Below the pieces are notes generated by a model. It ran no database searches. It saw only the letters and a list, made by a program, of their open reading frames with translations, and had not been told where the DNA came from. From a virus (lineage: Duplodnaviria; Heunggongvirae; Uroviricota; Caudoviricetes), in IMG/VR virus record IMGVR_UViG_3300042270_000314: a stretch of DNA of 64,000 bases. One strand, written 5' to 3'. The position numbers and the translations under genes were made by a program. Positions 2,874 to 60,781 of this stretch are shown piece after piece (the first letter of the stretch is position 1; the number at the start of each line of letters is the position of its first letter).

Positions 2874-2880
2874 ATGTTTT

Positions 2881-6565: not shown

Positions 6566-6599
6566 TATTATTTTTAGAATTTTACTTTAGTTCGTTTTG

Positions 6600-6997
6600 G
6601 AGTAGATGTGGTCCTTAATTTTTTGTTTACAATAGTTTAAATTGTAGTCCTCACCGTCTGAAGATCAAATTTTTATTAAATAAAATCCTCTATTTATAGC
6701 ATGAGCAGTCTTTTTCATATCTTTGTGATACACGGTATTAGAATCTTCTTTTGAGAACGGAGATTTCCACATATCCCATTTTTCTTTGTCTTCTTTTAAC
6801 CACTTCGGGTTTGGATGAAAGGCTTCCCCATTATATTCTATAATGATTTTGAATTTTGGAATAGTGAAATCGTAAAAATATATTTCTTGATCCCGTATAA
6901 ACCACTCCGTACTTCCCTTTATTCCCACATAAATTTCATCAAATGTACAAATTTCTTCTTCTAACAACCAATCCATTAATGGAAAGAACACATTCAT
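6600..6997 (-). CDS. Vsr/DUF559-like endonuclease-domain protein (IIEYNGEAFH motif); 1 in-frame TGA; possibly the nuclease module of the upstream Zn-finger/repeat gene
   Basis: Track ORF 6665..6997 continues through TGA at 6665 to TAA (...YLIKIW*SSDGEDYNLNYCKQKIKDHIYSKTN). Confidence 0.45.
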
Positions 6998-7042
6998 TGA
7001 TTCCTTTGATGCATCATTAAAGTTTACTTGTGATTTTTCTAT

Positions 7043-18000: not shown

Positions 18001-18568
18001 CTGCACTTAAATCTTTGACATAAATTTCTTTATTATTTGAAAATAAAATATGATTATCTGCACATATTAATTCTATACCATTTGATAATGATACTTTATA
18101 TTCATCATATTCAATAGTTTTGCCAACCCCAGAAAAATCTTTTCACCCTTCTGGGGTTCATATTTCATAATCTTCACAGAAACGCTTTTCAACAAATTTA
18201 TCATCTATATTAAAAGAAGATATTGTTAATTTATCAAAAAATTCTCCAATAGTTAGTTCTTCCTCTATTCCAGTTTTTTTGTTTCTAATTTTTATTTTTG
18301 TGTCCCAAGAAACGCACTTTCCCGATTGTCTGCAGAACAAGAAAACCAAATAACGATTGTCTTTACACATTTTAATCATTTTTTTCTGAAATGGGTAAAG
18401 AAGATCCCCTAATTTTTTCCTGCCACCATCGATAGTAACAATAGTAACAAAATTAAGAAAATACAAAACATCTTCTGAACACCTAACAAGATCTGATATC
18501 ATCTCAGGTGTATATTCATTTTCCATTCCTGGGGTCTTTACAAATTTATCATCGTATCTAATTGACAT
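15099..18568 (-). CDS. terL: large terminase subunit (T4 gp17-like) interrupted by two inteins; several in-frame TGA; frame break inside intein 2
   Basis: N-terminus LYPFQKKMIKMCKDNRYLVFLFCRQSGK then intein 1; extein STTVGAFALWYAIFNSDKFIGIASNK...LPFW*LKPGVIEYNKNSIEFENGSKIE matches the T4 gp17 region TVVAIFLAHF...[23 protein letters not shown]; after intein 2 the extein CSMLLLDELAFV (Walker B)...IIIISTPNG...nuclease domain IGVDPSKGSGAHDACIQIY...DDLVSALYWLCF. Confidence 0.8.
16161..17620 (-). mobile_element. intein 2 of terL (begins CVPKYTKVCV, ends VISHN|C): N-terminal part fused in frame to a complete GIY-YIG endonuclease with NUMOD3 repeats ending at TAA 16464-16466; blocks B and F/G follow in the -1 frame from ~16484
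   Basis: GIY-YIG YYMVYKTTNLINGKYYIGFHSTN...YLGSGKYIRRAIEKYG; NUMOD3-like GRKHSDKTKKLISEKS, GMKRSEVTRKRISNSRIG; I-TevI-like tail IPDGW*LKGTG; block B IDCTHNHKFLLSDGITFKEAKDIIVGDILF; block F/G VFDALNVQDTQSYW*TNGVISHN. Confidence 0.6.
17867..18316 (-). mobile_element. intein 1 of terL: ~150-aa mini-intein inserted in the Walker A P-loop (GK|C...SHN|S)
   Basis: CVSWDTKIKIRN (block A), GIELICADNHILF (block B), MYDCLDVDGECYYTNGIKSHN (blocks F/G) then +1 Ser; contains 2 TGA codons. Confidence 0.7.
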
Positions 18569-18653
18569 ATTAAAAGCCTTTTCATAGTTTGATTTATTTA
18601 TATAAATATTATAAACATCAAGTGAATCATAAAATTCTGGAGGAATTTAACTC

Positions 18654-27178: not shown

Positions 27179-29130
27179 CTACCTTGCATACCTATAAACT
27201 AAACACCCACAATCCCAAATTCTATCAAATCCATTCATTTGCATATTTTCCCATTCAGTAAGATTAGGATCAAAATCCTTTAATAAACTTGGTAATTTAT
27301 GTTTCATATAAACGGATCTATGTACCAACTTCCCATTAATAATGTACCAATAGGACGGAGCACTCTTATGACTAAATTCAAACCCAAGTTGTTCATATAA
27401 ATTACCATTAGACCATCTACGATCTGCATAGGAAATTATTTCTTCAAATTCATTGTTTCTAACAAAGTGTTTAAATAATTTACTTGCTCCCCCAATGACT
27501 TGTGTATTAAGTTTATTACAAAATCTTAAAAGCTCAAGTTTAGTTTTTCCTGTTATTTTTCTCTTACCAAAAGTCATACATGAAACAAGTTCATCATTAT
27601 AAAAAAGCCCATATCTAATAGACGAATTACAATATCCTTGGAGGTGATTTTGAAGAAGAAAGATATTAGATTCTTCAAAAGTAAGAGATCTTATTTCGCA
27701 TTTTCTAGCATATATTCTATTTTCAAAAATACCCAACTTAGAAAGAAGTGCAGATTTAACTATAGATTGTTTATCTTTCCATTCCGTTTCAAATATATGA
27801 ATAAGTTGAATATTATTTTCATCACAAATATCTGTCTTATTTATATGATATTTTTTATTTTTATTTCCTGAAATTTCAGAATGATAATATATACCATCAT
27901 ATTCAATCCCCAAATTGGAATTTGGAATAAAGATATCTATCTCAAGACCATCTAAAATTTCTTTATTTCCCCTGCGATGATTAATATTCAAAAATTTTGC
28001 TATTTCGTTTTCTGCCTTACTAGTTCCTCCCTTAACTCTACAGGAACAAGAAACTCCTTTATTTATTAATTCTATAGATAATGGTCTGATATTTTTACAT
28101 CTTAAACATTTAACATCGGTCGTTTTTAGAGGACTAAGAGCAAATTCATATCTAGATGCTATCATTTCATAATCATTATCTTTACAATAATTATATATTA
28201 ATGGATATTTTTTAAATCTCGCAATAATATTACTATGTTTATTTCCACAATTAGTACAATAGCTTCTATAACCATTTCTTAATAATGGTGTTTTCTCTTT
28301 TTTACAAATATAACATATTCTTTCTTTTGGATTATTATTTAGAATAAGGTAATATATTTCTCTATGAGTAAAATCCGCATAATAGATGTTTATACTTTTA
28401 TATAATTTTGGGGACTTGTTAAGAATTTTTATGGCAACATTTTGAAAATCATAATTGAATTTAGCTAAAAATAAAAGAAAAATTTTATTGGTTCTTTCTA
28501 ATGAATAAACTTTAATATCTGAAGATTTTAAAATTTTAATTCCTCTATTATTTCTTTCCTTTTTAACATCTTGGTTAGGATCACGTTTTCTTATTAAATC
28601 TGGATTATTTATAGCACATATTCTTGAACAAAATTTTCTATATCCCCATGACTCTAATAATGTGTTAAATGGTAATATATTTCCACAAAGAGGGCATACA
28701 GGAATATTTTTTAAATTAAAAACATAATGGAATATTTTTTGAGATAATATACTGTTAGTAATATTGGATTTAATGTCATTAAAAAACAATTCTATTTGTT
28801 GTATTGTTTTTGGATATTTGTTTTTTAATATTTTAATATATCTTTTGGGGTATTTAACTCTTAATTCTAAAATTTCCTCTTTTGTTAATATAATATCAGT
28901 AGATTCATTAAGAAGTGCTTTTTCATTTCCAATTTTTTCTCTATATATTTGAGACTTAGTCATACATTCATATGAACAATATTGTATATTATGTTTTCCT
29001 TTACTTAAAAAAGGCTCACCACATTCTAGACATAAATCATGATAATAATATGTACCATCATTACCTCTAAAATTTCCTCTATTGCTTAATTTAATATTAT
29101 GTTTTTCTAGATTGTCTCAACAAATAATCA
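27179..29130 (-). CDS. large homing-endonuclease-like protein: multiple Cys zinc fingers plus a Vsr/DUF559-like nuclease motif (LGIEYDGIYYHSE); ~650 aa, 1 in-frame TGA
   Basis: Track ORF 27179..28963 extends upstream through TGA to ATG ~29128-29130 (MIICW*DNLEKHNIKLSNRGNF...CLECGEPF...). Confidence 0.5.
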
Positions 29131-29176
29131 TGATAGTCTACTCCCATAGAATTTGAAATTTAAAGAGAAGTTAGAG

Positions 29177-41245: not shown

Positions 41246-44200
41246 ATGAGAGATTATTTAATAGAAAATCATATATGAAAAGATCAAGAAGGGAAAGATA
41301 AATTCCTTGCAAAAGAAAAGAAAATTACAAATGAATTTTGGATTAATTTTCTTGGCTTTCTTGGTCTGTATGCAAAATATAAAGATGAGAACAAACTCAT
41401 TCAATATTTTAAACAGTCTACAGTAAGACTAGACAAAGTTACTGATACAGATTCTGATCTAATGGTTATTTTGAAAGTCATTGATGACAAAAAAGTTATA
41501 CCTGACATGACTATGACCAAGATTACCAAAATGCTCGCCAAAATTAAAATGGGAACATTGGGTGGGCTGGACGAAAATATGTTTAGAGACGAAATTATCA
41601 AAAGAATAAAAGTTTCATCTTTATACCCATATCCACAAATTTCCGCTCTTCTTAAAGATTTTAAGAAAGGAAATAAAACTTTATCTGATATGCTTCCAGA
41701 ACTCTACAGTTTAGCGATGCAGCATAAGAGAGCACATGAATTTAGGGTATTATATAAAAGGCTTTCAAGTCCTTCAGATAGTACCCAGGATGCTACAGAC
41801 GCACCTGTAACTGTTGATACTGTTGTCCCAAAAGTTTCGTCAGTCAAATCTGCATTAACAGGCGAACCTAAGACTACAAATATTCCTGTTAAAACTCAAG
41901 TTATCCCTACTGATGAGCCAAAAGAAATTCCTGCTCCAACTTGGCAGGATATTACTTTATATACTAATGCAAATCAACTAGATCTTGAATTAAGCACATA
42001 TTATCTTCTAATGTATCTGGTTTCTAATAGTAAATCTTCTAGTGATATTCAAACTATTGTTAGAAGTCTTTATATGAGATATACTCCTTCAAGAACAGTA
42101 ATGAAGCAGTTTTTGTTTGACGAAATTCCAGATGAAATCAAAAAGCAATTCCCTACAATCGAAAAATTATATACCCCAATTAAAGGAGATTTTTCTAGAT
42201 TGTCTCCATATTTTATTGAATATGCATTTAAAGATTCACTTCTTTTTGATTTTAGATATATGGTTAGAACTCTTCAGATGAAAGATAATATAAAAGATCT
42301 ATATACAACTTTTTCTTCTTTTTTTATTGAAGATTTAAAAAAATATTTTTCAGAATGAAGAGGCTCTTTAAAAATTGCTTCTAAAGTTCCTGACAAATAT
42401 ATTGATGAATTAGATTCTATTCTTAAATCTACATTCCCAGATTGTTTGAATGAAAAAAATATAATTAGAGCAATTATTATGCTGCGGGGAAACGATTTTG
42501 AGACTCTTATTCATGGCATTTATGGGGATCAAAAAATTGAAATTGTAGATTATTTAGGGCATTTTGCTGAATATATGACTTTGGATACTATAAATGTTGT
42601 GATTTCTATTGAGAGTAGATCATCAAAAGAAATAGCAAAAAAATGGATTTTATTAGATGATAAAAAAAGTGCAGCATATAGATGAGCTGATTCAATGTTG
42701 ACACTTAAAGACAAAATTGGTGATAAATTATCATATGAAATTCTTAATTCTGAGTTAGTGAAGAGAACAAATCCAACCTCCTTTCATGAATTTTATTTAA
42801 AACATTTGAAAGATAATAATTGAACTTTAAAAGAATATATTGAACACTATAATTTACCATATTCTGAATTTATTGAACGAGTAAAATCAAGTAATGATGA
42901 TCTTAGAAAGTATCTTACTTTGGCATTTTTTTTACATAAAGAATATCAAACAGATCATTCATATTTGATTGAGGATCTTGCACTTGAGACTGGCCCAGGA
43001 TTTAAATGGATAGATGTTTATATTAGTGAACGAGAAGAATTTAGTTTGGTTGGACTTTATTGTTTGAATTATTTTGCATATAAAGGAAACTGGACCAAAT
43101 TTGCGTATTTGGTCAAAACTATAGAAAGAGACTCAAAAAACAATTATCACCCCAAATATATTATTGGCGAAGTTAAAGTTATTAAAAATATTTTTAGGAA
43201 GCTTAATACATCTATGCCTGAGTTTCTACTTTTTTATACACTATTAACAAAATTAATAGATGATAAGTTCGATATGAGTACGGTGCAAAATTGGGGAATT
43301 GAAGCAGATTTTATATTTAAGAACCCCGATTTGTTTATAGATTTAAATAAAATAGTAGCATACAGATTACAGAATTTTATTAAATATTTTGAAAATAGTG
43401 ATTATGATTTATCAAAAAGCATAAAGATAGACGCAGCCATTAAAACTATAATTAAAGAGAATGATGATAGTACATATGGTTTCTTTTCAGTTAAAGACTA
43501 TAGGTTTAATTTAAAAACTTTTAATTCATATAAAGATATATGGTTAGAACATGTAAAATATAAAATTAAGATTTCAGGTCTTCATATTCTAAGAGATTTT
43601 AATTATTTAATTTCGAAAGGATTTTTAGATAAAGCTTTTGTTCAACAATTTTTAGCAGACAATATGGACGATGAAAGATATAAAAAAAATGTATATGATT
43701 ATGTATATAACTTTCCGGTATATGAACAAGATGAATTAAAAAAATCTTTTGCCTTAGAATATTTCGATTCAAAAGACAAAATAAATGATTTCTTATTAAA
43801 TCATGAAGATAATGATTGAAGATTAAAATATCTTAATAGAGCAGGATACTATACATCTAAGGAAGCTACTGAAAATATTGCGGAATATTTAGATCGAAAT
43901 TCTTTCATGATTGGAAAGTTATATGACGATTATGGAGTAGATGCCCTAATAGAATATTTTAAGAATGATAATGTTCAAGGGGTTTGGGATAAAATTAGTT
44001 CTGGTAAAAGACTTTTAAATAAGACCAATAGTCTTGAATATATCATGTTAGATATGTTATCTGATAAAGATAAACTTCAAAAACTTGATGATCTATTAGA
44101 TGCATTTCCTAATAAAATTGCTAATTCATTAGTTAATACATTGAAAGATCAACTTTTGATTTATCCACTATTAAAAGATATTTTCAATGATGATAACCCT

Positions 44201-45451
44201 TTAAAACCCTCAATTAAATTAACCCCTTCTAGAATCAAAACATTATTGAAATATAATAACTTTGAATTTAAGGGAGCAATGCTTAGAAAGAAGCCAAGAG
44301 AAAAATGGGCAGATTACTTTGTGCGTGTTGAACAAGTATTAAAGGGAGATGCTCTCATTCCAGATATCAATTTGGAAAAAATTGAGGAAACTCAAGATCA
44401 GCTTAATGAAAAGTCTGTTGAATATTCTAAATATTATAATGGAAAACATGGAAATTCTGCTGTTGAATTTATTGAATCCTTTAATGTTAATATGAAATAT
44501 CCTGAATTTGATCAATTTAGAACAAGATTTGGAGCTAGTGAACTTATTCCAGCTTTCCATGCTTCAGGATTAACAGCATCAAACTTTATTTTAAGATTTG
44601 GGTTTACTGTTATTCCTGCAAACGATTCTTCTACTGTTGGCAGAATGCTTGATATTCATAATATGCTTTTAGTTAAACCTAAAAGTGATGGAGATGCTAT
44701 TGAAGAGTCTAATGATTATATTGAATATTTAGAAAATGGATATTTTCCTGTATCATCACGAGAATCTGGTAAACGAGTTACATATAGTGATTATCCAACA
44801 GATTTATATCATTGGAGAACAATAGATACTGTTGGTGGAATTTATGTAACTAATGTTATTGAAAAGGCTGCTCAATATCTTGGAGATGATGGTTACTCAA
44901 GAAGAGAAGGAACAGTTGGGACAATCTATGAATGTGAAGTAAATCTAGGGGATTATGGACTTCATCATCATGTTGCAGGTACCGGAAACGACTCAATTCG
45001 TTCTCCCGAATGAGCAATTTGTTGACCTCAAGCTCAAATTAACATTGTAAAAGCTCATAAAGTAATGTTCACAAATAAGAAAAGAATTAAAGAACTTAAA
45101 GCTAAATATCCTAATGCTTTAAAAGAAAACAAGTATTTTAAACGATTTGCAGATTATCTTCAGGAGCAAGAAATGATTAAAAGTAAAAATGTTATTACAT
45201 TTGTGTTTCATCAGTGTACAGTACCAACTGCTAAAGAAATTATGCCTTGGGAAGATTTTGAAAAGAAAGTTATTAAGAAATCTAACAAGATGTATGTTGA
45301 TTCAAATCAGTTTGGTATCGGTATAACCTTCCATACGGATAAAGATCTTAATGGTGTAGTTCGAGTTCCATTTACTGATGAGTTTATGGTAGATGACCCC
45401 GAAGGTTTATATTCTCAGTTTCTGATGTTAGTTGATGAATGTAAAGGTTAA
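41246..45451 (+). CDS. giant 1401-codon protein (7 in-frame TGA; no TAA/TAG for 4.2 kb) with a putative C-terminal ADP-ribosyltransferase-like domain (R...SST...YECEV); candidate virion-injected protein analogous to T4 Alt
   Basis: Track ORFs 41462.., 42446.., 42920.., 43907.. and 45065..45451 plus an upstream extension to ATG 41246 are all in the same frame separated only by TGA; C-terminal motifs FHASGLTASNF, ANDSSTVGR, GTIYECEVNLG. Confidence 0.55.
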
Positions 45452-45480: not shown

Positions 45481-45972
45481 ATGACACAATTTATTAAATT
45501 TTTGAGAATGGATCTAAAGAGTGGTGATTCTAAAAGGTCCTATTTTGGAAAGGCGGCTGCTGGTGCCATTGTATATGCTAAAAAGGAAAAAGCCTTCCTA
45601 GTTCTTCAAAGACAAAAAGATACTATAGACGGATGGAAAAAAGTCAAAGAGGCAGGAACTTGAAGCATTGTTGTTTCGGGAAAAGTTGATGATTCTGATA
45701 AATGACCAAAAATAACAGCCAAAAGAGAATTTAAAGAAGAACTGCGATATAATGGCACCTTTAAAATTTCAGAAAAACCATTTGATATTTTTGAGGATGG
45801 AGATTTTACTTTTACAACCTTTATAATAACTGTGGATGAGATATTTGAACCAAAGTTAAATTGGGAACATTCAGCTTATAAATGAATTACATCTTTTAAA
45901 GATATTCCTGCGCCTATTCATTTTGGAACAAAAAGAATTTTAAAGAAGTTGCAAATCAAATACAAAATGTAA
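45481..45972 (+). CDS. NUDIX hydrolase (163 aa, 3 in-frame TGA)
   Basis: Nudix box GKVDDSDKW*PKITAKREFKEELRY fits GX5EX7REUXEEXGU; track ORF 45481..45663 extended through TGA to TAA 45970-45972. Confidence 0.6.
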
Positions 45973-46042: not shown

Positions 46043-47536
46043 TTAGAGAATTACTTCTCCAGTTTCTTCATCAATCATTTCTTCCAATATAAATTTTTTA
46101 CATAACTTTAAATTTTCTTCAAATTTATCTTCTGCTCATACAGTAAGAATTTTATAACCAGCATTAATAGCGATATTATTTTTAAAGGCGTCCCTTTCAA
46201 GTGCTTTAATATAGTCACATTCTTTGTCTCAAACATGCCTTCATTGTTCTTTTTTATCTATAGATCATGTATCTCTTACATGAGATCCATTGCCATTATA
46301 TTCTATTATAAGTTTATCAAATAATGTAAAATCAAACATAAATCTATTTTTTCTATTATTGTATGTTATACACAATTCAGAACTTTCTGGTATACCACAT
46401 TTAATATCTTTAAAATCTGCAATATTCTCTTCAAATAATCAATCTATCAATTCATAAAATAACTTTAAGGATTCTTTGGAAACCGACCTAGTATTTCCTG
46501 ATGATCTTTCACAAAACAAATTATATCTTTTTATGCCCTCATCTTCTCCATATCTATCTATAAAATTGTGTAAATTTTGTTTTGATTTTTCTCTAAATAT
46601 GGTATGTCTTCTAGTTCCTTCTTCCTTTCCATATATTCTAATCATATTATCTAATGTAGGCACACTAGACTTACTTCATCTATTATAAAAAGAAGCTCCT
46701 TCTTCCTTTCCGTATCTATTAATACAATATTTTAAAGAGCCAATGCCTTTTTTGTTACTGCAAACTTCTTTATATCTTCTAGTTCCTTCTTCCTCTCCAT
46801 ATATTCTAATCAAATTGTTTAAACCACAGCCAACTTTATTACAATATTCATTATATTTCTTTAATCCTTCTTCCTCTCCATATCTAATAATAAAGTTTTC
46901 TTTGGAATTTTTAGCAGAATTTACTCATTCATTGTATCTTCTAGTTCCTTCTTCCTCTCCATGCTTTGATATATATTCTTCTAATGTAAGATGTGATTTT
47001 GATCATTCATTGTATCTTCTAGTTCCTTCTTCCTCTCCATGCTTATAAATAAATTTTTCTTTAGATAAAGATTTTGATAAACAATATTCGTCATATTTCT
47101 TTAATCCTTCTTCTTCCCCGTGTCGTTTTATAAAATTTTGTTTATTATTTTTTGTTTTATTAACTCATTCATTGTATCTTCTAGTTCCTTCTTCCTCTCC
47201 ATATTTGTTGGTGAAGAATGCTAAGTCTCTACTACAACCAGCACAGATTTCATTGTATCTTCTAGTTCCTTCTTCCTCTCCATATAAAATTTTTAGTGCA
47301 TGAATACTCCTGGATTTGCCGCATTTTTCGCACAATGGTTTATATTTGCCAGAAGAACTTATAAAATATGTTTCATTTGTTTTACATAACTTACATATAC
47401 CGTCCATATTATCTACTTTAAGATTATTATCATAATAAAATTTAAAAGATATATTATGTTTTTTTGTTAAATGTGTTTTAAGTGCTTTCATAGATTTACA
47501 TTCTATATTGCATATAAGACATATTATTGACATCAA
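46043..47536 (-). CDS. homing-endonuclease-like protein: N-terminal Cys zinc fingers, ~10 tandem YGEEEGTRRYNE-type 25-28-aa repeats, C-terminal Vsr/DUF559-like nuclease motif (IIEYNGNGSHV); ~498 aa with ~9 in-frame TGA
   Basis: Track ORFs 47165..47536 and 46439..46663 share a frame; the intervening sequence is open with TGA as Trp (…YGEEEGTRRYNEW*VNKTKNN…); plus-strand ORFs 46476..46688 and 46743..47048 (SSSPY repeats) are its antisense. Confidence 0.55.
46590..47290. repeat. tandem DNA repeats (~78-85 bp period, core ctcattcattgtatcttctagttccttcttcctctccat) encoding the YGEEEGTRRYNEW protein repeats
   Basis: Near-identical 39-mers at ~46925, 47007, 47163, 47248 and degenerate copies at ~46600 and 46774. 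Confidence 0.65.
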
Positions 47537-47591: not shown

Positions 47592-48650
47592 TTATTCTTC
47601 TAAAGAAACATCTTTTAGTGATTCCTTAAGTTCTTCATCGATCGTACTATATCCAGTAGCTTTAAGTTCATTATTTATTTTTTCTAACATTTCCCTGTTA
47701 AATCATGGAATAGTTTTTTCGATTCCCTGAACTTTTTCACCTGTTATAACATTTGTACATCAACCAGCCCCTGCCTTAGTAATAAATCCAAATTTTTCAG
47801 CTAAATCAAACATACCATGAACTTTGTTAATACCATGTACATAATCAATATCAACCTCACATCTATTAAATGCAGGGTAAAATCTATTTTTTAACGTGTA
47901 TGCTTTAACTACATTTCCAATTACTGTTTTATCTTTATCATATTTCTTTGACTTTTTGAGCATAATAATACAATCGGCTAAATATTTACAAGCTTTACCA
48001 CCACCTATTTCTTCTTCAGTAGCATAAAGACCAGCATTTGGACTTCCGTATGTATGCCCGGTATAAATACCAATGGAACTTTTCTTTTTAATGATTGTGG
48101 TGAATAACTTCATCATTTGCTTAATTTTTCTTGCGAGGCCACCTTGATCTGATTTAACATTTCCATCTGAAGCATCTGATAGAAGTTTATTTGATTCAAG
48201 ACCGCCAATAGAATCTAAAATAATTAAAAATTTTTCATCTTCTTCTTCAAGTAATTGTCCAAAAATAGAGCTTACATTATCTACAATTGGTTCATAAATA
48301 TATAATATCTCATCAGGGTCTAGACCCCATCTTTTTACAAATTCCCCTGATAGTCCCCCTTCAGTATCTATGATAATTACTTTATATCCTTCTTTTTGTG
48401 AATTAGCTGCACAGATACATGCAAATGAAGATTTAAAAGATGCTTCCATGCCAGCTAAAAAATTCATAGATCTAACAGGCAGCCCCTTAAAAAGATCCCC
48501 AGAAATAATTCTATTTAAATCATAACTTGGGGTACTGATTCAAGAATCACAATTCATGATTTCACTATCACTTAAAATTTCACAATGTACACCCTTAACT
48601 TTTTTATTAATTTTAGCTTTCAATTCTTTTAATGTTGTCATATTTTTTTC
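47592..48650 (-). CDS. uvsX: RecA-like recombinase UvsX, ~352 aa, 3 in-frame TGA
   Basis: Track ORF 47760..48467 extended in both directions through TGA; RIISGDLFKGLPVRSMNFLAGMEASFKSSFA matches T4 UvsX IALSGEITGGMQSGLLILAGPSKSFKSNF; RecA L2-like SDQGGLARKIKQMMKLF. Confidence 0.7.
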
Positions 48651-48653
48651 TCC

Positions 48654-49100
48654 TTAACATTTATACATATCTTCAATATTAAGATCTTCTAAATAATCTT
48701 TCATATTTTTATTTTCTAATAAATTTTTAAAAACATTAAAACATTTATCTTGTAAAAATTTCATTCTTGCTTCATGGCCATATAACATTTCTGGCATATC
48801 ATTTTCATCAAATGAAATGTAATATTCATCAACAATTTTTAAATCTTTAATATGTATAAGACCACTTAGATAAGTATATATAGCAATAATTCTTTTAGCA
48901 GAATCTAATTCACAAGAGAATCCAATAATAATATCATTTTCAAAGACAGTTAAAGTTAAATTTCCATCTAAAAGGGATATTACTTCATTTTCCTCATTAT
49001 AATAAGCAAGCTCTTTACCTAGATACTTATCATCTTTAACGATATCCCAAATTCTTTTTGTAATTTCTACATCTGATAACCCCCGCTTCCATTCATCCAT
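48654..49100 (-). CDS. hypothetical protein (148 aa)
   Basis: Track ORF. Confidence 0.4.
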   Translation of the reverse strand: MDEWKRGLSDVEITKRIWDIVKDDKYLGKELAYYNEENEVISLLDGNLTLTVFENDIIIGFSCELDSAKRIIAIYTYLSGLIHIKDLKIVDEYYISFDENDMPEMLYGHEARMKFLQDKCFNVFKNLLENKNMKDYLEDLNIEDMYKC

Positions 49101-51127
49101 TATACTTCCTCCTTAATAGAGCTATATCCATTAGATTTAATAATATTAAACCTACGATCAAATGTAAACGAACTAATTTCTTTTCTATGAGAAACAATGA
49201 ATGTAGCAAGATTGTCTTCACGTTGTTTGATAGTTACAATATTCATAAGATTTTCAATACCTTTAACATCTACAGAAGAATCCAAAATTTCATCAAGAAT
49301 AAGAATGTTTGGGAGATTTTTGCATTTTAATTTTGAAATGTCATAAAGAGCAAATTGAAGAGCCAATTCTAAAGATTTCTTTTCTCCCCCGGAAAGACTA
49401 CTGGCTGTTGCATTAGAAATTCCAGCTCCCTTGATTTCACAATCCAGCCATCCATCAAGCTTGATATAAAACCCTACGGCTGCCTCTGAGAGGTAATGGT
49501 TAGCTCTCTGGTTAATGATAGGTACTAGACTACTAATGGCATATTGCTTAATCTGGTCATCACCACAGAGCTTCTTCAGGAAGGAATAATAATCCTTCAA
49601 AAGACTAAGATTAGTATTCTTCTTTTTGAGTTCAACATTTTCACTCTTCAGAAGACTCAGTTCAGAAATAGCATTTGCTTTGTATTCTTCAAGCTTCTCA
49701 ATCTGAGCTTTTCTTTCTTCAATTCTATTTTTTTCATTTTCAATCTGAGAAAGAAGAAGATCTCTATTGTACAATGAGGCCCTTTCCTTCATTTCTTTCA
49801 ATTTTGAATTGCAATTAAATACAGTATTAGAGAATTTTTCTTTTGTTTCCTTTAGAGTCTTAATAGATTCCATAATCTCTAAATACTTACTATTTTCTTC
49901 AATTACTTTTGTTAATCTTTCAATTTCAGATTCATAATACTTATAATCCATATTAGATTTTTTAATATCATTATGCTTAGAAATAAGGAGGTTTTCCTTT
50001 TCTTCTACTTCAGTAAGCTCCTTGTTTAATCTATCTTTTTCTTTTGCTTTGTGTTCTCTAATAGATTCATTATTCATTTTAGATCCACAAATAGGACAAT
50101 TATCAAGATCTTCATATTGCCCTTTTTGTGAGACCTTTTTCAGATCTGAAAGGATGGATTCTTTCTTTACCTTATAATCGAAACACTCATCATAAAGAAG
50201 CTTTTCAAGTTCCTCATCGTAGTTTACACTAGTAAAATTCTTCTTACATTCTTCTAACTTGTCAGCAGCATTAGGGTCATAACTAATTCCCTTTAGAAGA
50301 GCATTCTTTTCTGAAAAAGCTATTTCAGCTTTATTTTTAACTACTTCAATATCTTTAATCTTTTGTTCATATTTCTCAATATCTTCTTTTGAAGGAAGAT
50401 CATCCGGGATATCGTTGAGTTGTTCCTGAAGTAACTGTAAGTGAGTATCTGAAATGTCAATACTTCGAATATCAGAAGTGTATTTTGAAACATTTATTTC
50501 TAATGAAGAAATTCTCTCTTCATTTTTCGAAACAGAAGTTTTGTTCTCTAATATTGCACTATCAATATTAGAAACTTTTTTATTAATCTTATTCTTTATA
50601 TCTGAGTATGCTTCAAGATTGAAAATGTTCTCTAGAAATTTTCTTTTCTGAGCTTTAGGAATATCAAAGATTGAAACGAAGTTATTTGGATTATAATAGA
50701 ACAAGGAAATAAAGGTTTTGTAATCAATTTTCAAAATTTCTTCTTCGAGATATTTTTGAAAATCTGTGACAGAAGCTAAAGAATCAAGTTCTTTATCGCC
50801 CTTGTAAATTTTTAGAACATTAGGTTTGATTCCTCGTTCAATCCTATATTTAATCCCATCAATAGAGAATGAAATTTCTACCAAGCATTTTTTCTTATTC
50901 TTCCAATTTACTATTTGATCTTTAGTAATATCTTTAATTGTTTTGCCAAACAATGCCCAAACAATACTTTCATTTAAACCAGATTTCCCTGCTCCATTTG
51001 ATCGTGAAGTATCCTTGTTTTGCCCTGAGATCAAAGTCAGCCCGTGGTCAATTTTAAATGTTGAAACATTAGATCCATATGATAGAAAATTCTTTATCTT
51101 GACTTCTTCTAAATGAATTATAGACAT
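49100..51127 (-). CDS. gp46: recombination endonuclease subunit gp46 (Rad50/SbcC-like ATPase)
   Basis: N-terminus KIKNFLSYGSNVSTFKIDHGLTLISGQNKDTSRSNGAGKSGL...YRIERGIKPNVLKI matches T4 gp46 (…TGRNGGGKST…YYIKRGQKPNVFEI); long coiled-coil; C-terminal LSGGEKK signature and LILDEILDS D-loop. Confidence 0.8.
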   Translation of the reverse strand: MSIIHLEEVKIKNFLSYGSNVSTFKIDHGLTLISGQNKDTSRSNGAGKSGLNESIVWALFGKTIKDITKDQIVNWKNKKKCLVEISFSIDGIKYRIERGIKPNVLKIYKGDKELDSLASVTDFQKYLEEEILKIDYKTFISLFYYNPNNFVSIFDIPKAQKRKFLENIFNLEAYSDIKNKINKKVSNIDSAILENKTSVSKNEERISSLEINVSKYTSDIRSIDISDTHLQLLQEQLNDIPDDLPSKEDIEKYEQKIKDIEVVKNKAEIAFSEKNALLKGISYDPNAADKLEECKKNFTSVNYDEELEKLLYDECFDYKVKKESILSDLKKVSQKGQYEDLDNCPICGSKMNNESIREHKAKEKDRLNKELTEVEEKENLLISKHNDIKKSNMDYKYYESEIERLTKVIEENSKYLEIMESIKTLKETKEKFSNTVFNCNSKLKEMKERASLYNRDLLLSQIENEKNRIEERKAQIEKLEEYKANAISELSLLKSENVELKKKNTNLSLLKDYYSFLKKLCGDDQIKQYAISSLVPIINQRANHYLSEAAVGFYIKLDGWLDCEIKGAGISNATASSLSGGEKKSLELALQFALYDISKLKCKNLPNILILDEILDSSVDVKGIENLMNIVTIKQREDNLATFIVSHRKEISSFTFDRRFNIIKSNGYSSIKEEV

Positions 51128-51130
51128 TTA

Positions 51131-51625
51131 TTATTCCTTAAAAAACAAATTTTCATTTACATAACGGTTTCTTAATTCCATTAAAATAAAGCCTAGATGA
51201 TTATGTTTTACTTTTACTTTTTTACATTTTTCACATTTACATACACCCCAAAAATTATCATGCCATAAGTTTCCTTCGATTAATATATAGGGGTGTGTTG
51301 CTATAAGTTTTTCTTTAATACTCTTATTATATTCAAATTTTTCATATATAATGTCTCTCATTATTTGAACTTTTACATTATTCCAATCTTCTCTTAATGT
51401 CAATTTCTTCCCTATTTCTTTGACAAGATGGGGAGTAGGGCAATCTATAATCCATTTTTTCTCTTTTGGATCAAGGGTTTTGGATGCTTGATAAGCATGT
51501 TCAGCAGTTTTCCATACAATATCATTATATAGAACAAAGGAAAAATAAAAATTACTTAGAAAGACATGTTCTCCCCTAAAAGTTTCAATACTGTTTTCAT
51601 CAAATATATTATAGATAGTAGACAT
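51131..51625 (-). CDS. NADAR (YbiA-like) domain protein
   Basis: FRGEHVFLSNFYFSF...AEHAYQASK...GNLWHDNFWG...HLGFILMELR match the NADAR/YbiA family signature. Confidence 0.65.
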   Translation of the reverse strand: MSTIYNIFDENSIETFRGEHVFLSNFYFSFVLYNDIVWKTAEHAYQASKTLDPKEKKWIIDCPTPHLVKEIGKKLTLREDWNNVKVQIMRDIIYEKFEYNKSIKEKLIATHPYILIEGNLWHDNFWGVCKCEKCKKVKVKHNHLGFILMELRNRYVNENLFFKE

Positions 51626-52025
51626 TAAAAGTTACCTCACTGTCTCCAAATACATATTTAAGTTGTTCCTTAACTGCGGGCCAAGATAACCTATCAAGCC
51701 CACAACCAATTTTAGGCATATAGACTTCTGTAATGATGTTATTTCTCATTACCTCTGCCATATTTTGGAGTGCAAAGCACATAGACTCATAAGAGGGTTT
51801 ACCGGAACTTCGTCTTTTTGTTACAATATTTAATACTGGGGAAACATAATAAGTTTTCCCTACTTCAAGAACTTCATTTCGAAGTCTTTTAATTTGTGGA
51901 TAATTTTTCACAAAATCAACCGCAATACCAGCACCCATTTCAGCATCTGCTGCAATACAATGAGCAACCACAGTATCTTTTTTAACAAAATTGAACAGGT
52001 TTCCCTGAGTTTCATTGATTATCAT
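51609..52025 (-). CDS. Macro-domain protein (ADP-ribose binding or hydrolase)
   Basis: VVAHCIAADAEMGAGIAVDF...YMPKIGCGLDRLSW match the macrodomain glycine-rich and GCG(L/I)DxL motifs. Confidence 0.6.
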   Translation of the reverse strand: MIINETQGNLFNFVKKDTVVAHCIAADAEMGAGIAVDFVKNYPQIKRLRNEVLEVGKTYYVSPVLNIVTKRRSSGKPSYESMCFALQNMAEVMRNNIITEVYMPKIGCGLDRLSWPAVKEQLKYVFGDSEVTFNVYYL

Positions 52026-52318
52026 TATTTGAATTCCTCATAGTTATACTTATATCCATTTGGAATATAATATTCTTCATGCTCATAAATGTTAACCATA
52101 CCATTATAATATGCGTTTAAGGATTTTGATGCTGAAATACAAAAAGGCGTGTCACCAAAATCCCATACAGCCTTTACAAATTTAACTTTAAAAGAATATT
52201 CATCATCCGTGGAATTGTCTTCTAATATTTCAATTTCACCAATAAGACCGGATTCTTTATATTGGTATCTTTTTCCAACCTCAACAAAATCCCAGCCACC
52301 ATTATGCCATGTTGCCAT
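52025..52318 (-). CDS. hypothetical protein (97 aa)
   Basis: Track ORF. Confidence 0.4.
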   Translation of the reverse strand: MATWHNGGWDFVEVGKRYQYKESGLIGEIEILEDNSTDDEYSFKVKFVKAVWDFGDTPFCISASKSLNAYYNGMVNIYEHEEYYIPNGYKYNYEEFK

Positions 52319-52331
52319 AATTTACACCCCC

Positions 52332-52769
52332 TTAATTTACATCACCAAATGACATATCTTTATCTTCTGAATCAATTACAATTTTTGCACCATATAAATG
52401 TTCATAGTAACCACACCAAAATGGATAAAGTTGATATTCTCTTTCTCCATCATCATGAAGTAATTTGATAGCATAATCATATCTTGAAGTTGCTTTATAA
52501 AAAGTTGCTTTAACGCAAAACTTAGGAACATTTTTTAACCATTTCTCTTCATTTACATGAGGAGGTTGGGTTGCATATGTAAACCATTCGTAATGTGCTT
52601 TGATTCTTTTTAGATTCTTTTTAGCAATATCAAGATTCTTCCATTCATACTCAAGAATAGAAGTCTCATCAGATGTTGAGAAAGAATCTCCGGCGCGATA
52701 ATAAATTTTAATTTGATAAGACATATGAACTCCAATATTAAAAGTGACTTGATAAAAATAATCTATCAA
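52332..52769 (-). CDS. hypothetical protein (145 aa)
   Basis: Track ORF. Confidence 0.4.
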   Translation of the reverse strand: MIDYFYQVTFNIGVHMSYQIKIYYRAGDSFSTSDETSILEYEWKNLDIAKKNLKRIKAHYEWFTYATQPPHVNEEKWLKNVPKFCVKATFYKATSRYDYAIKLLHDDGEREYQLYPFWCGYYEHLYGAKIVIDSEDKDMSFGDVN

Positions 52770-52797
52770 GCCACTTATCTATTGTAAATAAAATTCT

Positions 52798-59794: not shown

Positions 59795-60781
59795 CTATTC
59801 AGTTGGCTTGAATAAATCTTCAAGTATCTTTTTACACATTGTCAATTTTAAATGATCTGGGATAGAAATTTTATCAAGGTAAGTCAAGAATAATTGTTTC
59901 TCATCTAATGTTGAAAATTCCTCAGTAGGAATATCCATTTTGACATCTTCAATTTCAATTCTTGAATAATCAACATCAACTTGTAAAGGTTCTAGGGATT
60001 TGATTTTTGTCAAGAAATCTAAAATATCCATTTCTGAATATTCTTTTGTGAAATAAATTTTAACAATGTTCCCTTTAATTAGGGTTTCATCAAGATTCAT
60101 GTCAAAAACATGAATAAATTTTGGTGCATCAATAAATTCAACAAATTCCAATTCTAATGTTTCATCATCAAAAATATGGAACCCTCTTTTTGCATTAATA
60201 TCATTAAAATTATGCCCATACATATTGCCAATATAAATGATGTTATCTTTTTGGGATTGAGTATGATAATGACCTGATAGAACAATTTCATAATCCTTAA
60301 AAGAAGAAATTTCTTCTCCATGAAATGATGTTGTGTTATCATTCATCTTAAAATCTTTAATATCAAAATGCCCCATTAGAATTTTGGTATTTAAAGATTT
60401 GTACTCATTTGATCATGGGCAAAGCCCAATCTTATCATAAATAACAGTTGGTTCATTTACAATCTTAATATTATCATACTTATCAATAGTTTGAAGTGAA
60501 TTAAGTTCATTTGTATGCTTAAAATAAGCATCATGATTTCCACAAATAATATAGGTGGAAAAATCATTCAACATTTCACAAATTATCCTAGCAGAATCAA
60601 TAGCCTTAACAGATAATTCTTTCTTGTCATGATAAAAATCACCAAGAAAAATTATTGATTTAATGTTTCTTCTTCTTGATTCTGTGGTTAAAAAATCCAC
60701 AGCTTTAATTGGAAGTTTTTCTCATACTTCATTATTAATGTTTAGACCCACATGAAGGTCTGTAAAAAGAGCATGTTTCAT
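59795..60781 (-). CDS. gp47: recombination endonuclease subunit gp47 (Mre11/SbcD-like metallophosphoesterase), 328 aa, 2 in-frame TGA
   Basis: Track ORFs 59795..60376 and 60413..60700 plus an upstream extension share a frame (MKHALFTDLHVGLNINNEVW*EKL...IIFLGDFYHDKK...IICGNHDAYF...LMGHFDIKDF...VLSGHYH). Confidence 0.75.

What the first reader, a model, noticed from the sequence alone, without database searches (positions are those of the whole stretch)
51131..52025. Adjacent Macro-domain and NADAR-domain genes (plus a nearby NUDIX and the ART-like giant ORF): an ADP-ribosylation-reversal toolkit, possibly anti-DarTG counter-defence
- 51609..52025 has macrodomain signatures: the glycine-rich AADAEMGAGIA segment and GCGLDRLSW.
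- 51131..51625 has NADAR/YbiA signatures: FRGEHVFLSNFY, AEHAYQASK and WHDNFWG.
- Macrodomains (DarG) remove ADP-ribose from thymidine placed by DarT2. NADAR proteins reverse guanine ADP-ribosylation by DarT1-type toxins.
- A phage carrying both back-to-back looks like a dual antidote against DNA-ADP-ribosylating defence systems.
- Alternatively they regulate the phage's own ART.
- The NUDIX hydrolase at 45481..45972 may degrade ADP-ribose.
Basis: partly seen in the sequence, partly recalled or inferred. Interest (0 to 1): 0.7.

Follow-up and report, generated by a model that had tools for sequence, protein, structure and literature searches.

The report
Phage macrodomain–NADAR ADP-ribose eraser pair
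A T4-like phage that reads TGA as tryptophan carries two overlapping genes for enzymes that strip ADP-ribose off nucleic acids; this most likely protects its DNA from ADP-ribosylating bacterial defences, and it is a new example of a strategy already described in other phages.

Summary
51609..52025(-) encodes a 138-aa macrodomain and 51131..51625(-) a 164-aa NADAR protein. The two genes overlap by 17 nt.

- **Macrodomain:** TARG1/OARD1 type. PDB E = 1.4e-23; the AF2 model superposes on TARG1 at TM 0.91. The catalytic pair K70/D111 is invariant in 63 homologues. DarG macrodomains are the next-best fold.
- **NADAR:** YbiA subfamily. Pfam E = 6e-26. It has E42, K49, E117, D123 and W126. It is 37% identical to AdfN-Bas32, a phage NADAR shown experimentally to defeat DarTG1.
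- **Selection and conservation:** both genes are under purifying selection. The pair is kept in related phages. In one relative the NADAR is swapped in place for a 38%-identical allele. In another the macrodomain is broken by a TnpB insertion.
- **Other reader claims:** the NUDIX gene and the "ART-like giant ORF" are real only if TGA is read as Trp, which this phage does. The giant ORF belongs to a PARP-like family.

Phage NADAR (AdfN) and macrodomain (AdfM) anti-DarT factors, and viral Macro+NADAR neighbourhoods, are already published. This is therefore a new member of a known kind. The anti-DarTG role is plausible but untested. Rivals are erasing the phage's own PARP-like enzyme's marks and processing soluble ADP-ribose derivatives.

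The parts
51609..52025 (-). TARG1/OARD1-type macrodomain gene (138 aa). Catalytic Lys70 corresponds to TARG1 K84 and DarG K80. Asp111 in GCGLDRLSW corresponds to TARG1 D125.
   Evidence: PDB phmmer TARG1 E = 1.4e-23. AF2 pLDDT 95.1. Foldseek: TARG1 TM 0.91, then DarG TM 0.82. PADLOC DarG model 4.7e-14. K70 and D111 invariant in 63 homologues. dN/dS 0.07 vs L006.
51131..51625 (-). YbiA-subfamily NADAR gene (164 aa). Active-site residues E42, K49, E117, D123, W126. Lineage-specific CxCxxC insert at C129/C131/C134.
   Evidence: Pfam PF08719 6.3e-26. NCBIfam TIGR02464 above cut-off. YbiA 2b3w 1.5e-15. 37% identity, E = 2e-31 to AdfN-Bas32. Residue mapping. dN/dS 0.12 vs L001.
51609..51638 (-). Gene junction. 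The NADAR start codon (51625..51623) lies 17 nt inside the macrodomain gene. A GAGG Shine-Dalgarno-like motif (51638..51635) sits 9 nt upstream. This arrangement suits translational coupling.
   Evidence: Sequence read. Coupling is an inference.
52025..52318 (-). orf97, unknown function. Its stop overlaps the macrodomain start by 1 nt. Conserved in relative L006 (80% aa).
   Evidence: (no family).
52332..52769 (-). orf145 (called as 130 aa in public gene calls), phrog_10176, unknown function. First gene after a 15-bp hairpin at 52776..52742.
49100..51127 (-). gp46 / SbcC-Rad50-like recombination nuclease subunit. It starts 4 nt after the NADAR stop, same strand.
   Evidence: phrog_77 2.2e-103; Pfam AAA_23 and SMC_N.
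47592..48641 (-). UvsX/RecA-like recombinase (349 aa with 3 TGA = Trp), downstream in the same gene string.
   Evidence: Pfam RecA 5.3e-18 on the code-4 translation.
45481..45972 (+). NUDIX hydrolase (163 aa) with three in-frame TGA (Trp) codons. REFKEE catalytic box present. Substrate unknown.
   Evidence: Pfam NUDIX 3.9e-11 and phrog_1198.
41246..45451 (+). Giant ORF (1401 aa, 7 TGA = Trp). Member of a family of 1000-1700 aa phage proteins with a C-terminal PARP-like (H-Y-E) ADP-ribosyltransferase domain. This copy has a ~60-aa insertion in the domain.
   Evidence: phrog_18612 9.8e-82. A profile of its C-terminus finds 248 clusters. 26 of 30 members hit Pfam PARP, best 4.2e-11. Homologous to the Stenotrophomonas phage Moby 'ADP ribosyltransferase'. 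No direct Pfam or PDB hit for this copy. AF2 of the domain failed.

Best explanation
The two genes encode a pair of ADP-ribosyl hydrolases with complementary bond specificities. They are made together from one non-late transcript that also carries the phage's recombination and repair genes.

The NADAR cuts the N-glycosidic bond between ADP-ribose and guanine. NADARs have also been reported to reverse cytidine ADP-ribosylation. The TARG1-type macrodomain uses its Lys70/Asp111 pair to remove ADP-ribose from thymine, and possibly from phosphate ends or acidic side chains.

Together they would clear ADP-ribose adducts that host ADP-ribosyltransferase defences (DarT1-like and DarT2-like toxins and relatives) place on replicating single-stranded phage DNA. 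Replication and recombination could then proceed.

Shown here: the gene structures, family membership, intact active sites, purifying selection, conserved pairing and a non-late context. Inferred: the substrates, and that the target is a host defence.
For: - **Enzyme identity.**
- **NADAR active site.** All residues mutated or seen contacting ADPr in characterised NADARs are present: E42/K49 correspond to T4 AdfN E36/K43 and PnNADAR E43/K50, and E117/D123/W126 correspond to Pn E125/D130/W133 (PMC11825919, PMC11543638).
- **Closest tested NADAR.** It is 37% identical (E = 2e-31) to AdfN-Bas32. That protein neutralises DarT1 and rescues three phages on DarTG1 hosts (PMC11825919).
- **Macrodomain fold ranking.** The closest folds are TARG1 and then DarG. 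TARG1 reverses DarT thymidine-ADPr and rescues bacteria from DarT. The K84A mutant does not (PMC8501950). The equivalent K70 is invariant.
- **DarG profile match.** The DarG profile is the only PADLOC hit, at 4.7e-14.
- **Gene context.** The pair is packed between orf97 and gp46/SbcC, with UvsX downstream. It lies in an 8.7-kb accessory block between gp47 and gp46.
- **Timing.** No T4-type late promoter (TATAAATA) occurs between 48.07 and 62.5 kb. The motif is twofold enriched in the window as a whole and sits directly upstream of several structural genes.
- **Arms-race style turnover.**
  - In relative L006 the macrodomain and SbcC are 85% identical, but the NADAR is a 38%-identical replacement. 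DNA homology breaks exactly over the NADAR body.
  - In relative L001 the macrodomain is disrupted by a TnpB element.
- **Other counter-defence genes in the same phage.** Acb3 and Tad3 family members.
Against: - No experiment was done. The host is unknown, so it is not known whether it carries any DarT-like system.
- The macrodomain is not in the DarG2/AdfM clade and has Ala where DarG has N22.
- The NADAR passes NCBI's cut-off for the YbiA-type riboflavin-intermediate N-glycosidase domain.
- E. coli YbiA failed to protect against DarT1 in vivo despite in-vitro activity (PMC11125620).
- The phage has its own PARP-like ART 6 kb away, and the pair could serve that enzyme instead.
- Iyer et al. 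(PMC9503650) argue that most phage Macro and NADAR proteins act on soluble ADPr derivatives.
- The Macro-NADAR adjacency is confined to this lineage. More distant macrodomain homologues (54-60% identity) are not next to a NADAR.
Confidence: 0.5

Rival explanations
1. Eraser arm of a phage-run ADP-ribosylation cycle. The 1401-aa PARP-like protein writes ADP-ribose on host or phage targets. The TARG1-like macrodomain, and perhaps the NADAR, remove it from the phage's own proteins or nucleic acids or limit its spread. The NUDIX enzyme degrades the released ADP-ribose.
For: - The giant ORF belongs to a PARP-domain family.
- Recalled from memory, not checked in a paper here: in eukaryotes TARG1 is the natural partner of PARPs, removing Glu/Asp-linked and DNA-linked ADPr.
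- The writer, the NUDIX gene and the erasers lie within 11 kb.
- Two cultured phages with the giant ART homologue also carry a YbiA-like NADAR: Stenotrophomonas phages Bhz51 and IME-SM1.
- Iyer et al. note that NADARs of T4-like phages are expressed with ARTs (PMC9503650).
Against: - The writer is on the opposite strand, in a different transcription unit.
- In the Stenotrophomonas phages the ART and the NADAR are more than 40 kb apart.
- Counts by organism name suggest most of the 459 NADAR-carrying phage records lack the giant ART, which is found in 37 records. The full lists were not intersected.
- NADARs have only been shown to act on nucleobase-linked ADPr, not on protein-linked ADPr.
- In T4, the NADAR near alt works against DarTG1, not against Alt.
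- This copy of the PARP-like domain carries a 60-aa insertion, and its activity is unknown.
Confidence: 0.2
2. Processing of soluble ADP-ribose derivatives rather than macromolecular adducts. The macrodomain would act as an ADPR-1''-phosphate phosphatase (Adpp-like, countering aRES-type NAD+ depletion) or as an O-acyl-ADPr deacylase. The NADAR would cleave N-glycosidic bonds in ADPr-derived immune signals.
For: - PHROG 335 'phosphatase' 3.3e-24.
- The macrodomain is 28% identical (E = 3e-11) to the Adpp-type macrodomain in the Adps-Adpp-Namat operon of Vibrio phage P018-4. That protein also has TARG1 as its best PDB match (bioRxiv 10.64898/2026.01.28.702374).
- Poa1p is a fold match at TM 0.77.
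- General argument of Iyer et al. (PMC9503650).
- The phage also carries a Tad3-family Thoeris inhibitor, so NAD-derived signalling defences are relevant to it.
Against: - No Adps or Namat (NARP1) gene is in the window. The neighbours are recombination genes.
- The Adpp-type protein has GLAGG where this protein and TARG1 have GLDRL.
- The window protein is much closer to TARG1 (40% identity, 1e-23) than to Adpp or Poa1p.
- No NADAR activity on cyclic ADPr signals is reported in the papers read here.
Confidence: 0.15
3. Housekeeping metabolism. The NADAR acts as a YbiA-type N-glycosidase that removes reactive riboflavin-pathway intermediates. The macrodomain clears ADPr-1''P from tRNA repair or splicing.
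For: - TIGR02464 (riboflavin intermediates N-glycosidase domain) is matched above its curated cut-off.
- The window is rich in tRNA-related genes: 10 tRNAs, a CCA-adding enzyme and a YqeY-like protein.
Against: - No riboflavin genes, RNA ligase, Tpt1/KptA or polynucleotide kinase were found among the ORFs scanned.
- All tested NADARs, YbiA included, hydrolyse guanine-ADPr (PMC11125620).
- In-place allele replacement and IS disruption are not typical of housekeeping genes.
Confidence: 0.05

Closest known systems
AdfN (anti-DarT factor NADAR): T4 gp30.3, AdfN-Bas32, AdfN-Bas60 (Johannesman et al. 2025, PMC11825919)
   Same: - Orphan phage NADAR with the same catalytic Glu and Lys seven residues apart.
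- 37% identity (E = 2e-31) to AdfN-Bas32 (bas33_0070), with the same IEGN...D..WG active-site layout.
- Found in a T4-like phage.
   Different: - Not related at BLAST level to T4 gp30.3 (E = 0.89).
- Has Glu117 where T4-type NADARs have His.
- Carries a CxCxxC insert absent from AdfN-Bas32.
- Overlaps a macrodomain gene.
- Activity untested.
AdfM (anti-DarT factor macro), PhiKZ gp104 (Cell Rep 2026, PMC13309987), and DarG2 macrodomains
   Same: - Single-domain phage macrodomain with the conserved MGxG loop and the catalytic Lys in the T-K motif.
- The DarG profile is its only PADLOC hit.
- DarG is the second-best fold match.
   Different: - AdfM groups with DarG (9.4e-25), whereas this protein groups with TARG1.
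- Only a 16-residue local BLAST match to PhiKZ gp104.
- Ala25 replaces DarG N22 / AdfM N23.
- Has the TARG1-type Asp111, which DarG and AdfM lack.
- Not from a nucleus-forming phage.
Human TARG1/OARD1 (C6orf130)
   Same: - About 40% identity over the whole domain.
- TM 0.91, rmsd 1.5 A.
- Shares the K84 and D125 equivalents and a nearly identical GCGLDRL(Q/S)W motif.
- TARG1 reverses DarT thymidine-ADPr (PMC8501950).
   Different: - Phage-encoded.
- Ala25 where TARG1 has Ser35.
- Physiological substrate unknown.
E. coli YbiA and the YbiA subfamily of NADARs
   Same: - Best solved-structure match (1.5e-15).
- Subfamily-defining Glu present.
- Passes the TIGR02464 cut-off.
- E. coli ybiA sits in a LexA-controlled DNA-damage operon with dinG (PMC11125620). 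Here the gene sits with gp46 and UvsX.
   Different: - Phage gene.
- CxCxxC insert.
- YbiA itself does not protect against DarT1 in vivo.
Macro+NADAR tandem proteins and gene neighbourhoods in DNA viruses (Iyer et al. 2022, PMC9503650); Aeromonas phage phiA047 macro-NADAR gene pair
   Same: - Same two families side by side in a large myovirus.
- phiA047 has macro then NADAR with a 4-nt overlap.
   Different: - The phiA047 macrodomain is a different subtype (17% identity, no T-K Lys, GCGLANY).
- Iyer et al. favour soluble ADPr substrates.
- No SLOG or DUF4326 partner here.
Adpp, the macrodomain phosphatase of the NARP1-AP pathway (Osterman et al., bioRxiv 2026)
   Same: - Same broad Poa1p/TARG1-like macrodomain branch.
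- 28% identity.
   Different: - Not in an Adps-Namat operon.
- Retains the TARG1 Asp that Adpp-type proteins lack.

Membership tests
Macrodomain superfamily | Three-layer alpha/beta/alpha macro fold with a glycine-rich ADPr-binding loop | tested here: met
   AF2 pLDDT 95.1, pTM 0.90. 206 PDB matches at E <= 0.001. The named top-50 matches are macrodomains or chains designed on a macrodomain-like scaffold. MGAG loop at residues 30-33. The generic Pfam Macro model scores only 17 bits, below the cut-off of 22.
TARG1/OARD1-type macrodomain | Catalytic Lys (TARG1 K84) and Asp (D125) pair | tested here: met
   K70 and D111 align to K84 and D125. Both are invariant in 63 homologues. The K84 role is taken from PMC8501950. 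The D125 role is from memory (Sharifi et al. 2013).
TARG1/OARD1-type macrodomain | Closest solved relatives are TARG1 | tested here: met
   phmmer 1.4e-23. The top 8 Foldseek hits are all TARG1, TM 0.85-0.91.
DarG2 antitoxin / AdfM clade | Active-site Asn (Taq DarG N22, AdfM N23) | tested here: not met
   Ala25 occupies this column. TARG1 has Ser there.
DarG2 antitoxin / AdfM clade | Catalytic Lys (DarG K80, AdfM K78) | tested here: met
   K70 is in the invariant T-K column.
DarG2 antitoxin / AdfM clade | Groups with DarG macrodomains by sequence | tested here: not met
   DarG 5m3i only 1.5e-3, against 9.4e-25 for PhiKZ AdfM. NCBIfam antitoxin_DarG 42.9 bits against a cut-off of 250. The PADLOC DarG profile is nevertheless matched at 4.7e-14.
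DarG2 antitoxin | C-terminal DarT-binding domain and an adjacent darT gene | tested here: not met
   138-aa single domain. The neighbours are orf97 and the NADAR, with no DarT.
NADAR superfamily (PF08719) | Profile match above the curated threshold | tested here: met
   92 bits against 35.1, covering 9-161 of 163 profile positions.
NADAR superfamily (PF08719) | Catalytic and ADPr-contact residues (Pn E43, K50, D130, W133) | tested here: met
   E42, K49, D123 and W126. Residue roles from PMC11543638 and PMC11825919.
YbiA subfamily of NADAR | Glu at the Pn E125 position (Asp in the DarT1-linked BC4488 subfamily, His in T4-type phage NADARs) | tested here: met
   E117 in IEGN aligns with Pn E125 and with the YbiA VEH Glu. 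Rule from PMC11543638. TIGR02464 is above its cut-off.
DarG1 (DarT1-associated NADAR) | Asp at that position, a basic N-terminal extension and an adjacent darT1 | tested here: not met
   Glu117. Only about 15 residues precede the core. No DarT neighbour.
AdfN, T4 gp30.3 clade | Sequence relationship to gp30.3 (PF08010) | tested here: not met
   BLASTP E = 0.89, 20% identity. No PF08010 hit.
AdfN as a functional class (phage NADAR that defeats DarTG1) | Removes ADPr from DarT1-modified DNA and restores plaquing on DarTG1 hosts | not testable with these tools
   Only homology is available: 37% identity to the validated AdfN-Bas32.
Adpp (NARP1-AP ADPR-1''P phosphatase) | Macrodomain gene embedded in an Adps-Namat operon | tested here: not met
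   No Adps, Namat or NAMPT homologue in the 64-kb window. The rest of the genome was not seen.
NUDIX hydrolase (45481..45972) | Profile match and the REUxEE catalytic box | tested here: met
   Pfam 43.5 bits against 21.1 on the TGA = Trp translation. REFKEE present. ADP-ribose specificity not testable.
PARP-like (ARTD, H-Y-E) ADP-ribosyltransferase (41246..45451) | PARP catalytic domain with His, Tyr and Glu | tested here: inconclusive
   26 of 30 family members hit PF00644. The hit overlaps the region homologous to the window protein. FHASG, GGIY and YECEV are present. This copy gives no Pfam or PDB hit. Its AF2 model is unusable at pLDDT 39.6. Two close homologues have Ser in place of the His.

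The most novel reading that the evidence does not exclude
The phage runs a complete, self-encoded reversible ADP-ribosylation system of eukaryote-like design. It would consist of a giant PARP-like writer, a TARG1-type eraser, a NADAR base-specific eraser and a NUDIX scavenger. The phage would use it to reprogramme the host while keeping its own replicating DNA and proteins clean. In that case the Macro-NADAR pair is a self-immunity module rather than, or as well as, a counter-defence against host DarT toxins.
Probability: 0.15. Interest if true: 0.65.

Novelty: new member of a known kind. Interest (0 to 1): 0.35.

Why it matters
**If the pair works as proposed.** One small cassette would make a phage resistant to both known classes of DNA-ADP-ribosylating defence: guanine-targeting DarTG1 and thymine-targeting DarTG2.

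**What it would extend.**
- Anti-DarT macrodomains would reach beyond the DarG-like AdfM clade to TARG1-type proteins.
- Validated anti-DarT NADARs would reach further into the YbiA subfamily.

**Evolutionary reading.** The in-place swap of the NADAR allele and the transposon hit in the macrodomain of a relative give a natural record of gain and loss, which suggests ongoing selection by host defences.

**Practical points.**
- Both proteins are small, confidently assigned and cheap to test with published assays.
- The window is a warning for annotation: under the standard code the NUDIX gene, the PARP-like protein, UvsX, the terminase and many other genes are fragmented.

Tried and rejected
- **Megablast of the locus against 50,697 phage records:** no match. 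The phage has no close cultured relative. gp46 is below 30% identical to its best hits, which are cyanophages.
- **Direct tests of the giant ORF as an ART:** Pfam, PHROG function, PDB sequence search and BLASTP to T4 Alt were all negative. An AF2 model from a 5-sequence alignment had pLDDT 39.6, so no fold search was attempted. The question was settled only at family level.
- **TGA-free status as a marker of early genes:** rejected. The NADAR of relative L001 has two TGA codons, and the major capsid gene has none.
- **Sigma-70 promoter and terminator scans of 47-57 kb:** not above shuffled expectation. Only the T4-type late-promoter motif was informative.
- **Supplementary tables of the AdfN paper:** not held. 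AdfN-Bas32 was identified instead through the bas33 locus tag and a paper naming HildyBeyeler as Bas33.
- **NARP1, NAD-salvage, T4 Alt and AdfM homologues in the window:** none found by tblastn.
- **T4 AdfN clade membership for the NADAR:** rejected.
- **DarG2/AdfM clade membership for the macrodomain:** rejected.
- **Macro-NADAR fusion proteins:** none seen among the listed best homologues of either protein. Some NADAR relatives are fused to PF10686.
Full report
**Observation**

The 138-aa ORF is at 51609..52025 and the 164-aa ORF at 51131..51625. Both start with ATG and end with TAA. They overlap by 17 nt. A GAGG motif lies 9 nt upstream of the second start codon.

**The NADAR**

- It matches Pfam PF08719 at E = 6.3e-26, 92 bits against a cut-off of 35.1, over almost the whole model.
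- It matches NCBIfam TIGR02464 above the curated cut-off.
- Its best solved relative is E. coli YbiA (1.5e-15). The Phytophthora NADAR co-crystallised with ADP-ribose follows at 0.011.
- Pairwise and multiple alignments place E42 and K49 on T4 AdfN E36/K43 and on PnNADAR E43/K50. They place E117, D123 and W126 on Pn E125, D130 and W133.
- Schuller et al. (PMC11543638) use the E125 position to split the superfamily: Glu in the YbiA subfamily, Asp in DarT1-linked antitoxins, His in T4-type phage NADARs. The window protein has Glu.
- It is unrelated at BLAST level to T4 gp30.3 (E = 0.89).
- It is 37% identical (E = 2e-31) to bas33_0070 of phage HildyBeyeler/Bas33. Bas32 and Bas33 carry identical NADARs, named AdfN-Bas32. 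That protein neutralises DarT1 in E. coli and rescues three phages on DarTG1 hosts (PMC11825919).
- A CxCxxC insert (C129, C131, C134) is shared by the NADARs of this phage lineage and by L002. It is absent from YbiA and from AdfN-Bas32.

**The macrodomain**

- The generic Pfam Macro model scores below threshold, at 17 bits against a cut-off of 22.
- The protein matches human TARG1/OARD1 at E = 1.4e-23 and about 40% identity over its full length.
- In an alignment with TARG1, two DarG macrodomains and PhiKZ AdfM, K70 falls in the invariant T-K column (TARG1 K84, DarG K80, AdfM K78). D111 in GCGLDRLSW matches TARG1 D125.
- K70 and D111 are invariant in 63 homologues of 36-85% identity.
- An AF2 model built on that alignment is confident (pLDDT 95.1, pTM 0.90).
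- Its eight best PDB matches are all TARG1 (TM up to 0.91, rmsd 1.5 A). These are followed by the DarG macrodomains of Thermus and Mycobacterium (TM 0.81-0.82), the Thermosipho DarTG complex and, lower down, Poa1p.
- The DarG profile is its only PADLOC hit (4.7e-14).
- The protein is not a DarG2 or AdfM clade member:
  - PhiKZ AdfM matches DarG at 9.4e-25, whereas the window protein matches DarG at only 1.5e-3.
  - BLASTP to AdfM finds only a 16-residue stretch.
  - Ala25 sits where DarG has N22.
  - The DarT-binding domain is absent.
- Human TARG1 reverses DarT-made thymidine-ADPr and rescues bacteria from DarT, and the K84A mutant does not (PMC8501950).

**Genetic code**

- When TGA is read through, ORFs tile the window. 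In a set of 59 genes, 50 end in TAA, 9 in TAG and none in TGA. These genes contain 88 TGA and 163 TGG codons.
- In orthologues from two related phages, 14 of 16 TGA codons align with TGG or TGA.
- In relative L001, the Trp of the NADAR HDNFWG motif is itself encoded by TGA.
- TGA therefore means Trp in this phage.
- The two genes of the finding contain no TGA and are unaffected.

**The giant ORF**

- It has no Pfam hit, no PDB hit and no similarity to T4 Alt. An AF2 model of its conserved C-terminal region failed at pLDDT 39.6.
- A profile of that region finds 248 clusters of mostly 1000-1700-aa proteins.
- Of 30 sampled members, 26 match the Pfam PARP catalytic domain (best 4.2e-11) and 5 also match WGR.
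- The PARP matches overlap the region homologous to the window protein.
- Homologues in cultured T4-like phages of Stenotrophomonas, Aeromonas, Ralstonia and Pseudomonas include records annotated as ADP-ribosyltransferase or PARP catalytic domain.
- The Moby protein aligns with the window ORF at both its N-terminus and its C-terminus.
- The family consensus FHGTGS...ILRFGF...GRMLGDGIYFSN...QY...YIFEMEA resembles a PARP H-Y-E signature. This comparison with PARP is from memory.
- The window copy keeps FHASG, GGIY and YECEV, but has about 60 residues inserted between GRMLD and GGIY.
It is unproven for this copy.

**Context**

- The phage is T4-like. The window encodes gp23 and gp20 homologues, tail sheath, terminase, NrdD, gp46, gp47 and UvsX. 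It has no close cultured relative.
- The minus-strand string runs gp47 (59795..60781), several small ORFs, two tRNAs, YqeY, DUF7020, an SPFH lipoprotein, orf145, orf97, Macro, NADAR, gp46, orf148, UvsX. From orf145 through gp46 and orf148 the intergenic gaps are 0-13 nt or overlaps.
- The pair therefore lies in an 8.7-kb accessory block between the two subunits of the recombination nuclease.
- The T4-type late-promoter motif TATAAATA is enriched in the window: 31 matches against 14.9 +/- 3.5 expected, with no shuffle out of 100 reaching 31. It lies just upstream of several structural genes. It is absent on both strands from 48,070 to 62,506. This argues for non-late expression of the block.
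- Sigma-70-type scans were uninformative.

**Relatives**

- The identical NADAR protein occurs on at least 20 contigs from several JGI and SRA samples. Wherever the upstream flank is present, a macrodomain gene precedes it.
- In relative L006, Macro is 85%, SbcC 85% and SPFH 78% identical, but the NADAR is only 38% identical. DNA homology stops at 51547, inside the FLSNFY region, and resumes at the SbcC start. This is an in-place allele replacement. It also brought in an extra 112-aa gene.
- In relative L001 (a 164-kb IMG/VR contig), the NADAR is 75% identical. The first 64 codons of the macrodomain gene are replaced by a TnpB-type element (PF07282, 9.7e-20).
- Nonsynonymous change is far below synonymous change for both genes. 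dN/dS is 0.07 for Macro and 0.12 for NADAR, similar to SbcC. dS is near saturation, so these values are rough.
- Macrodomain homologues at 54-60% identity sit in conjugative or integrative contexts without a NADAR.
- A concatenated Macro+NADAR query found one cultured phage in 50,697 records with the two genes adjacent in this order, Aeromonas phage phiA047. Its macrodomain is a different subtype. This count is a lower bound, given tblastn sensitivity and the joining rule.

**Interpretation**

- The best-supported reading is a two-enzyme eraser cassette for nucleic-acid ADP-ribosylation. The NADAR handles guanine-linked adducts. The TARG1-type macrodomain handles thymine-linked adducts, and possibly phosphate- or carboxylate-linked ones. 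Both are expressed before late genes, together with recombination functions, and protect replicating phage DNA from DarT-like host toxins.
- Each half has a published phage precedent: AdfN in 2025 and AdfM in 2026. Iyer et al. (PMC9503650) had already recorded tandem Macro-NADAR proteins and neighbourhoods in DNA viruses.
- New here are the subtype combination (TARG1-type with YbiA-type), the overlapping arrangement inside the gp47-gp46 interval, the evidence of allele swapping and IS disruption, and the recoded host phage.
- Arguments against over-reading:
  - E. coli YbiA and T4 NADAR did not protect against DarT1 on their own (PMC11125620).
  - The host is unknown.
  - The phage encodes its own PARP-like enzyme and a NUDIX hydrolase within 11 kb.
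  - Macrodomains of the same broad branch act as ADPR-1''P phosphatases in NARP1-AP operons (bioRxiv 10.64898/2026.01.28.702374). No NARP1 gene is in the window, and the window protein keeps the TARG1 Asp that the Adpp-type protein lacks.

**Verdict**

- The enzyme families and intact active sites are close to certain.
- My probabilities are about 0.5 for counter-defence against ADP-ribosylating toxins, 0.2 for self-ART erasure, 0.15 for soluble-ADPr processing and 0.05 for housekeeping.
- This is a new member of a known kind, of moderate interest, and straightforward to test.

Noticed in passing
whole window; e.g. 45661..45663, 45703..45705, 45883..45885: The phage uses TGA as a Trp codon. 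In 59 genes there are 88 in-frame TGA against 163 TGG, and the stops are 50 TAA, 9 TAG and 0 TGA. 14 of 16 TGA codons align with TGG or TGA in orthologues, including the invariant Trp of the NADAR motif in relative L001. Usage is patchy: some genes have none (major capsid, gp46, Macro, NADAR), while 16463..18568 has 10 TGA and 1 TGG. None of the 10 tRNAs found in the window has a UCA anticodon. Table-11 gene calls in public databases truncate many of these genes.
   Followed up: partly
11570..12178(-) and 12178..12879(-): Two adjacent genes match recently defined anti-defence families: Pfam PF25185 'Type I Thoeris inhibitor Tad3' (1.7e-37) and PF25187 'CBASS inhibitor Acb3' (3.6e-51). The phage therefore carries other counter-defence genes 40 kb from the finding.
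   Followed up: no
41246..45451(+): This 1401-aa protein belongs to a large family (248 clusters at 50% identity) of giant phage proteins with a C-terminal PARP-like domain, some also with WGR. This copy has a ~60-aa insertion inside the catalytic domain. Two close homologues have Ser in place of the motif His.
   Followed up: partly
L001:4791..5972 (relative of window 51830..52320): In a related 164-kb IMG/VR phage, a TnpB/Cas12f-like element (PF07282, 9.7e-20) has replaced most of orf97 and the first 64 codons of the macrodomain gene. The NADAR is left intact.
   Followed up: partly
L006:5431..6233 and L001:6707..7027 (between NADAR and gp46; absent at window 51127..51131): Relatives carry an extra 106-112-aa gene (MKVITLCGSTKF...) between the NADAR and gp46, with no Pfam match. 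In L006 it arrived together with a 38%-identical replacement NADAR.
   Followed up: partly
46043..47536(-) and 6587..7891(-): Two proteins (497 aa and 434 aa under code 4) contain many copies of a ~28-residue repeat with the core (Y/H)GEEEGTRRYNEW. Both match phrog_22677 (unknown function). The first has 9 TGA codons and no TGG. It lies between the NUDIX gene and UvsX, right after a late-promoter motif.
   Followed up: no
59795..60781(-) versus 49100..51127(-): The SbcD/gp47-like and SbcC/gp46-like nuclease subunit genes are separated by about 8.7 kb of accessory genes: two tRNAs, YqeY, DUF7020, an SPFH lipoprotein, Macro and NADAR. In T4, as recalled from memory, the two genes are close neighbours.
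   Followed up: no
18595..18608, 19939, 23785, 24985, 31259, 35244, 37088 and others: The T4-type late-promoter motif TATAAATA is twofold enriched (31 against 14.9 expected). It sits immediately upstream of several structural genes, including a back-to-back divergent pair at 18595..18608. None occurs between 48,070 and 62,506.
   Followed up: partly
51221..51241(-), NADAR residues 129-134: A CxCxxC insert follows the catalytic HDNFWG motif. It is shared by the divergent NADAR alleles of this phage group and by L002, and is absent from YbiA and AdfN-Bas32. It could be a small metal-binding knuckle.
   Followed up: no
27179..29131(-): A 650-aa protein in the structural region strongly matches PHROG families labelled homing/HNH endonuclease (2e-118). 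It has a weaker match to a Mom-like DNA modification family.
   Followed up: no
877..2954(-) and 4574..5905(-): A cluster of eight tRNA genes lies next to a CCA-adding enzyme/poly(A) polymerase-family protein with an HD domain. A GNAT acetyltransferase and anaerobic NrdD/NrdG lie further along.
   Followed up: no
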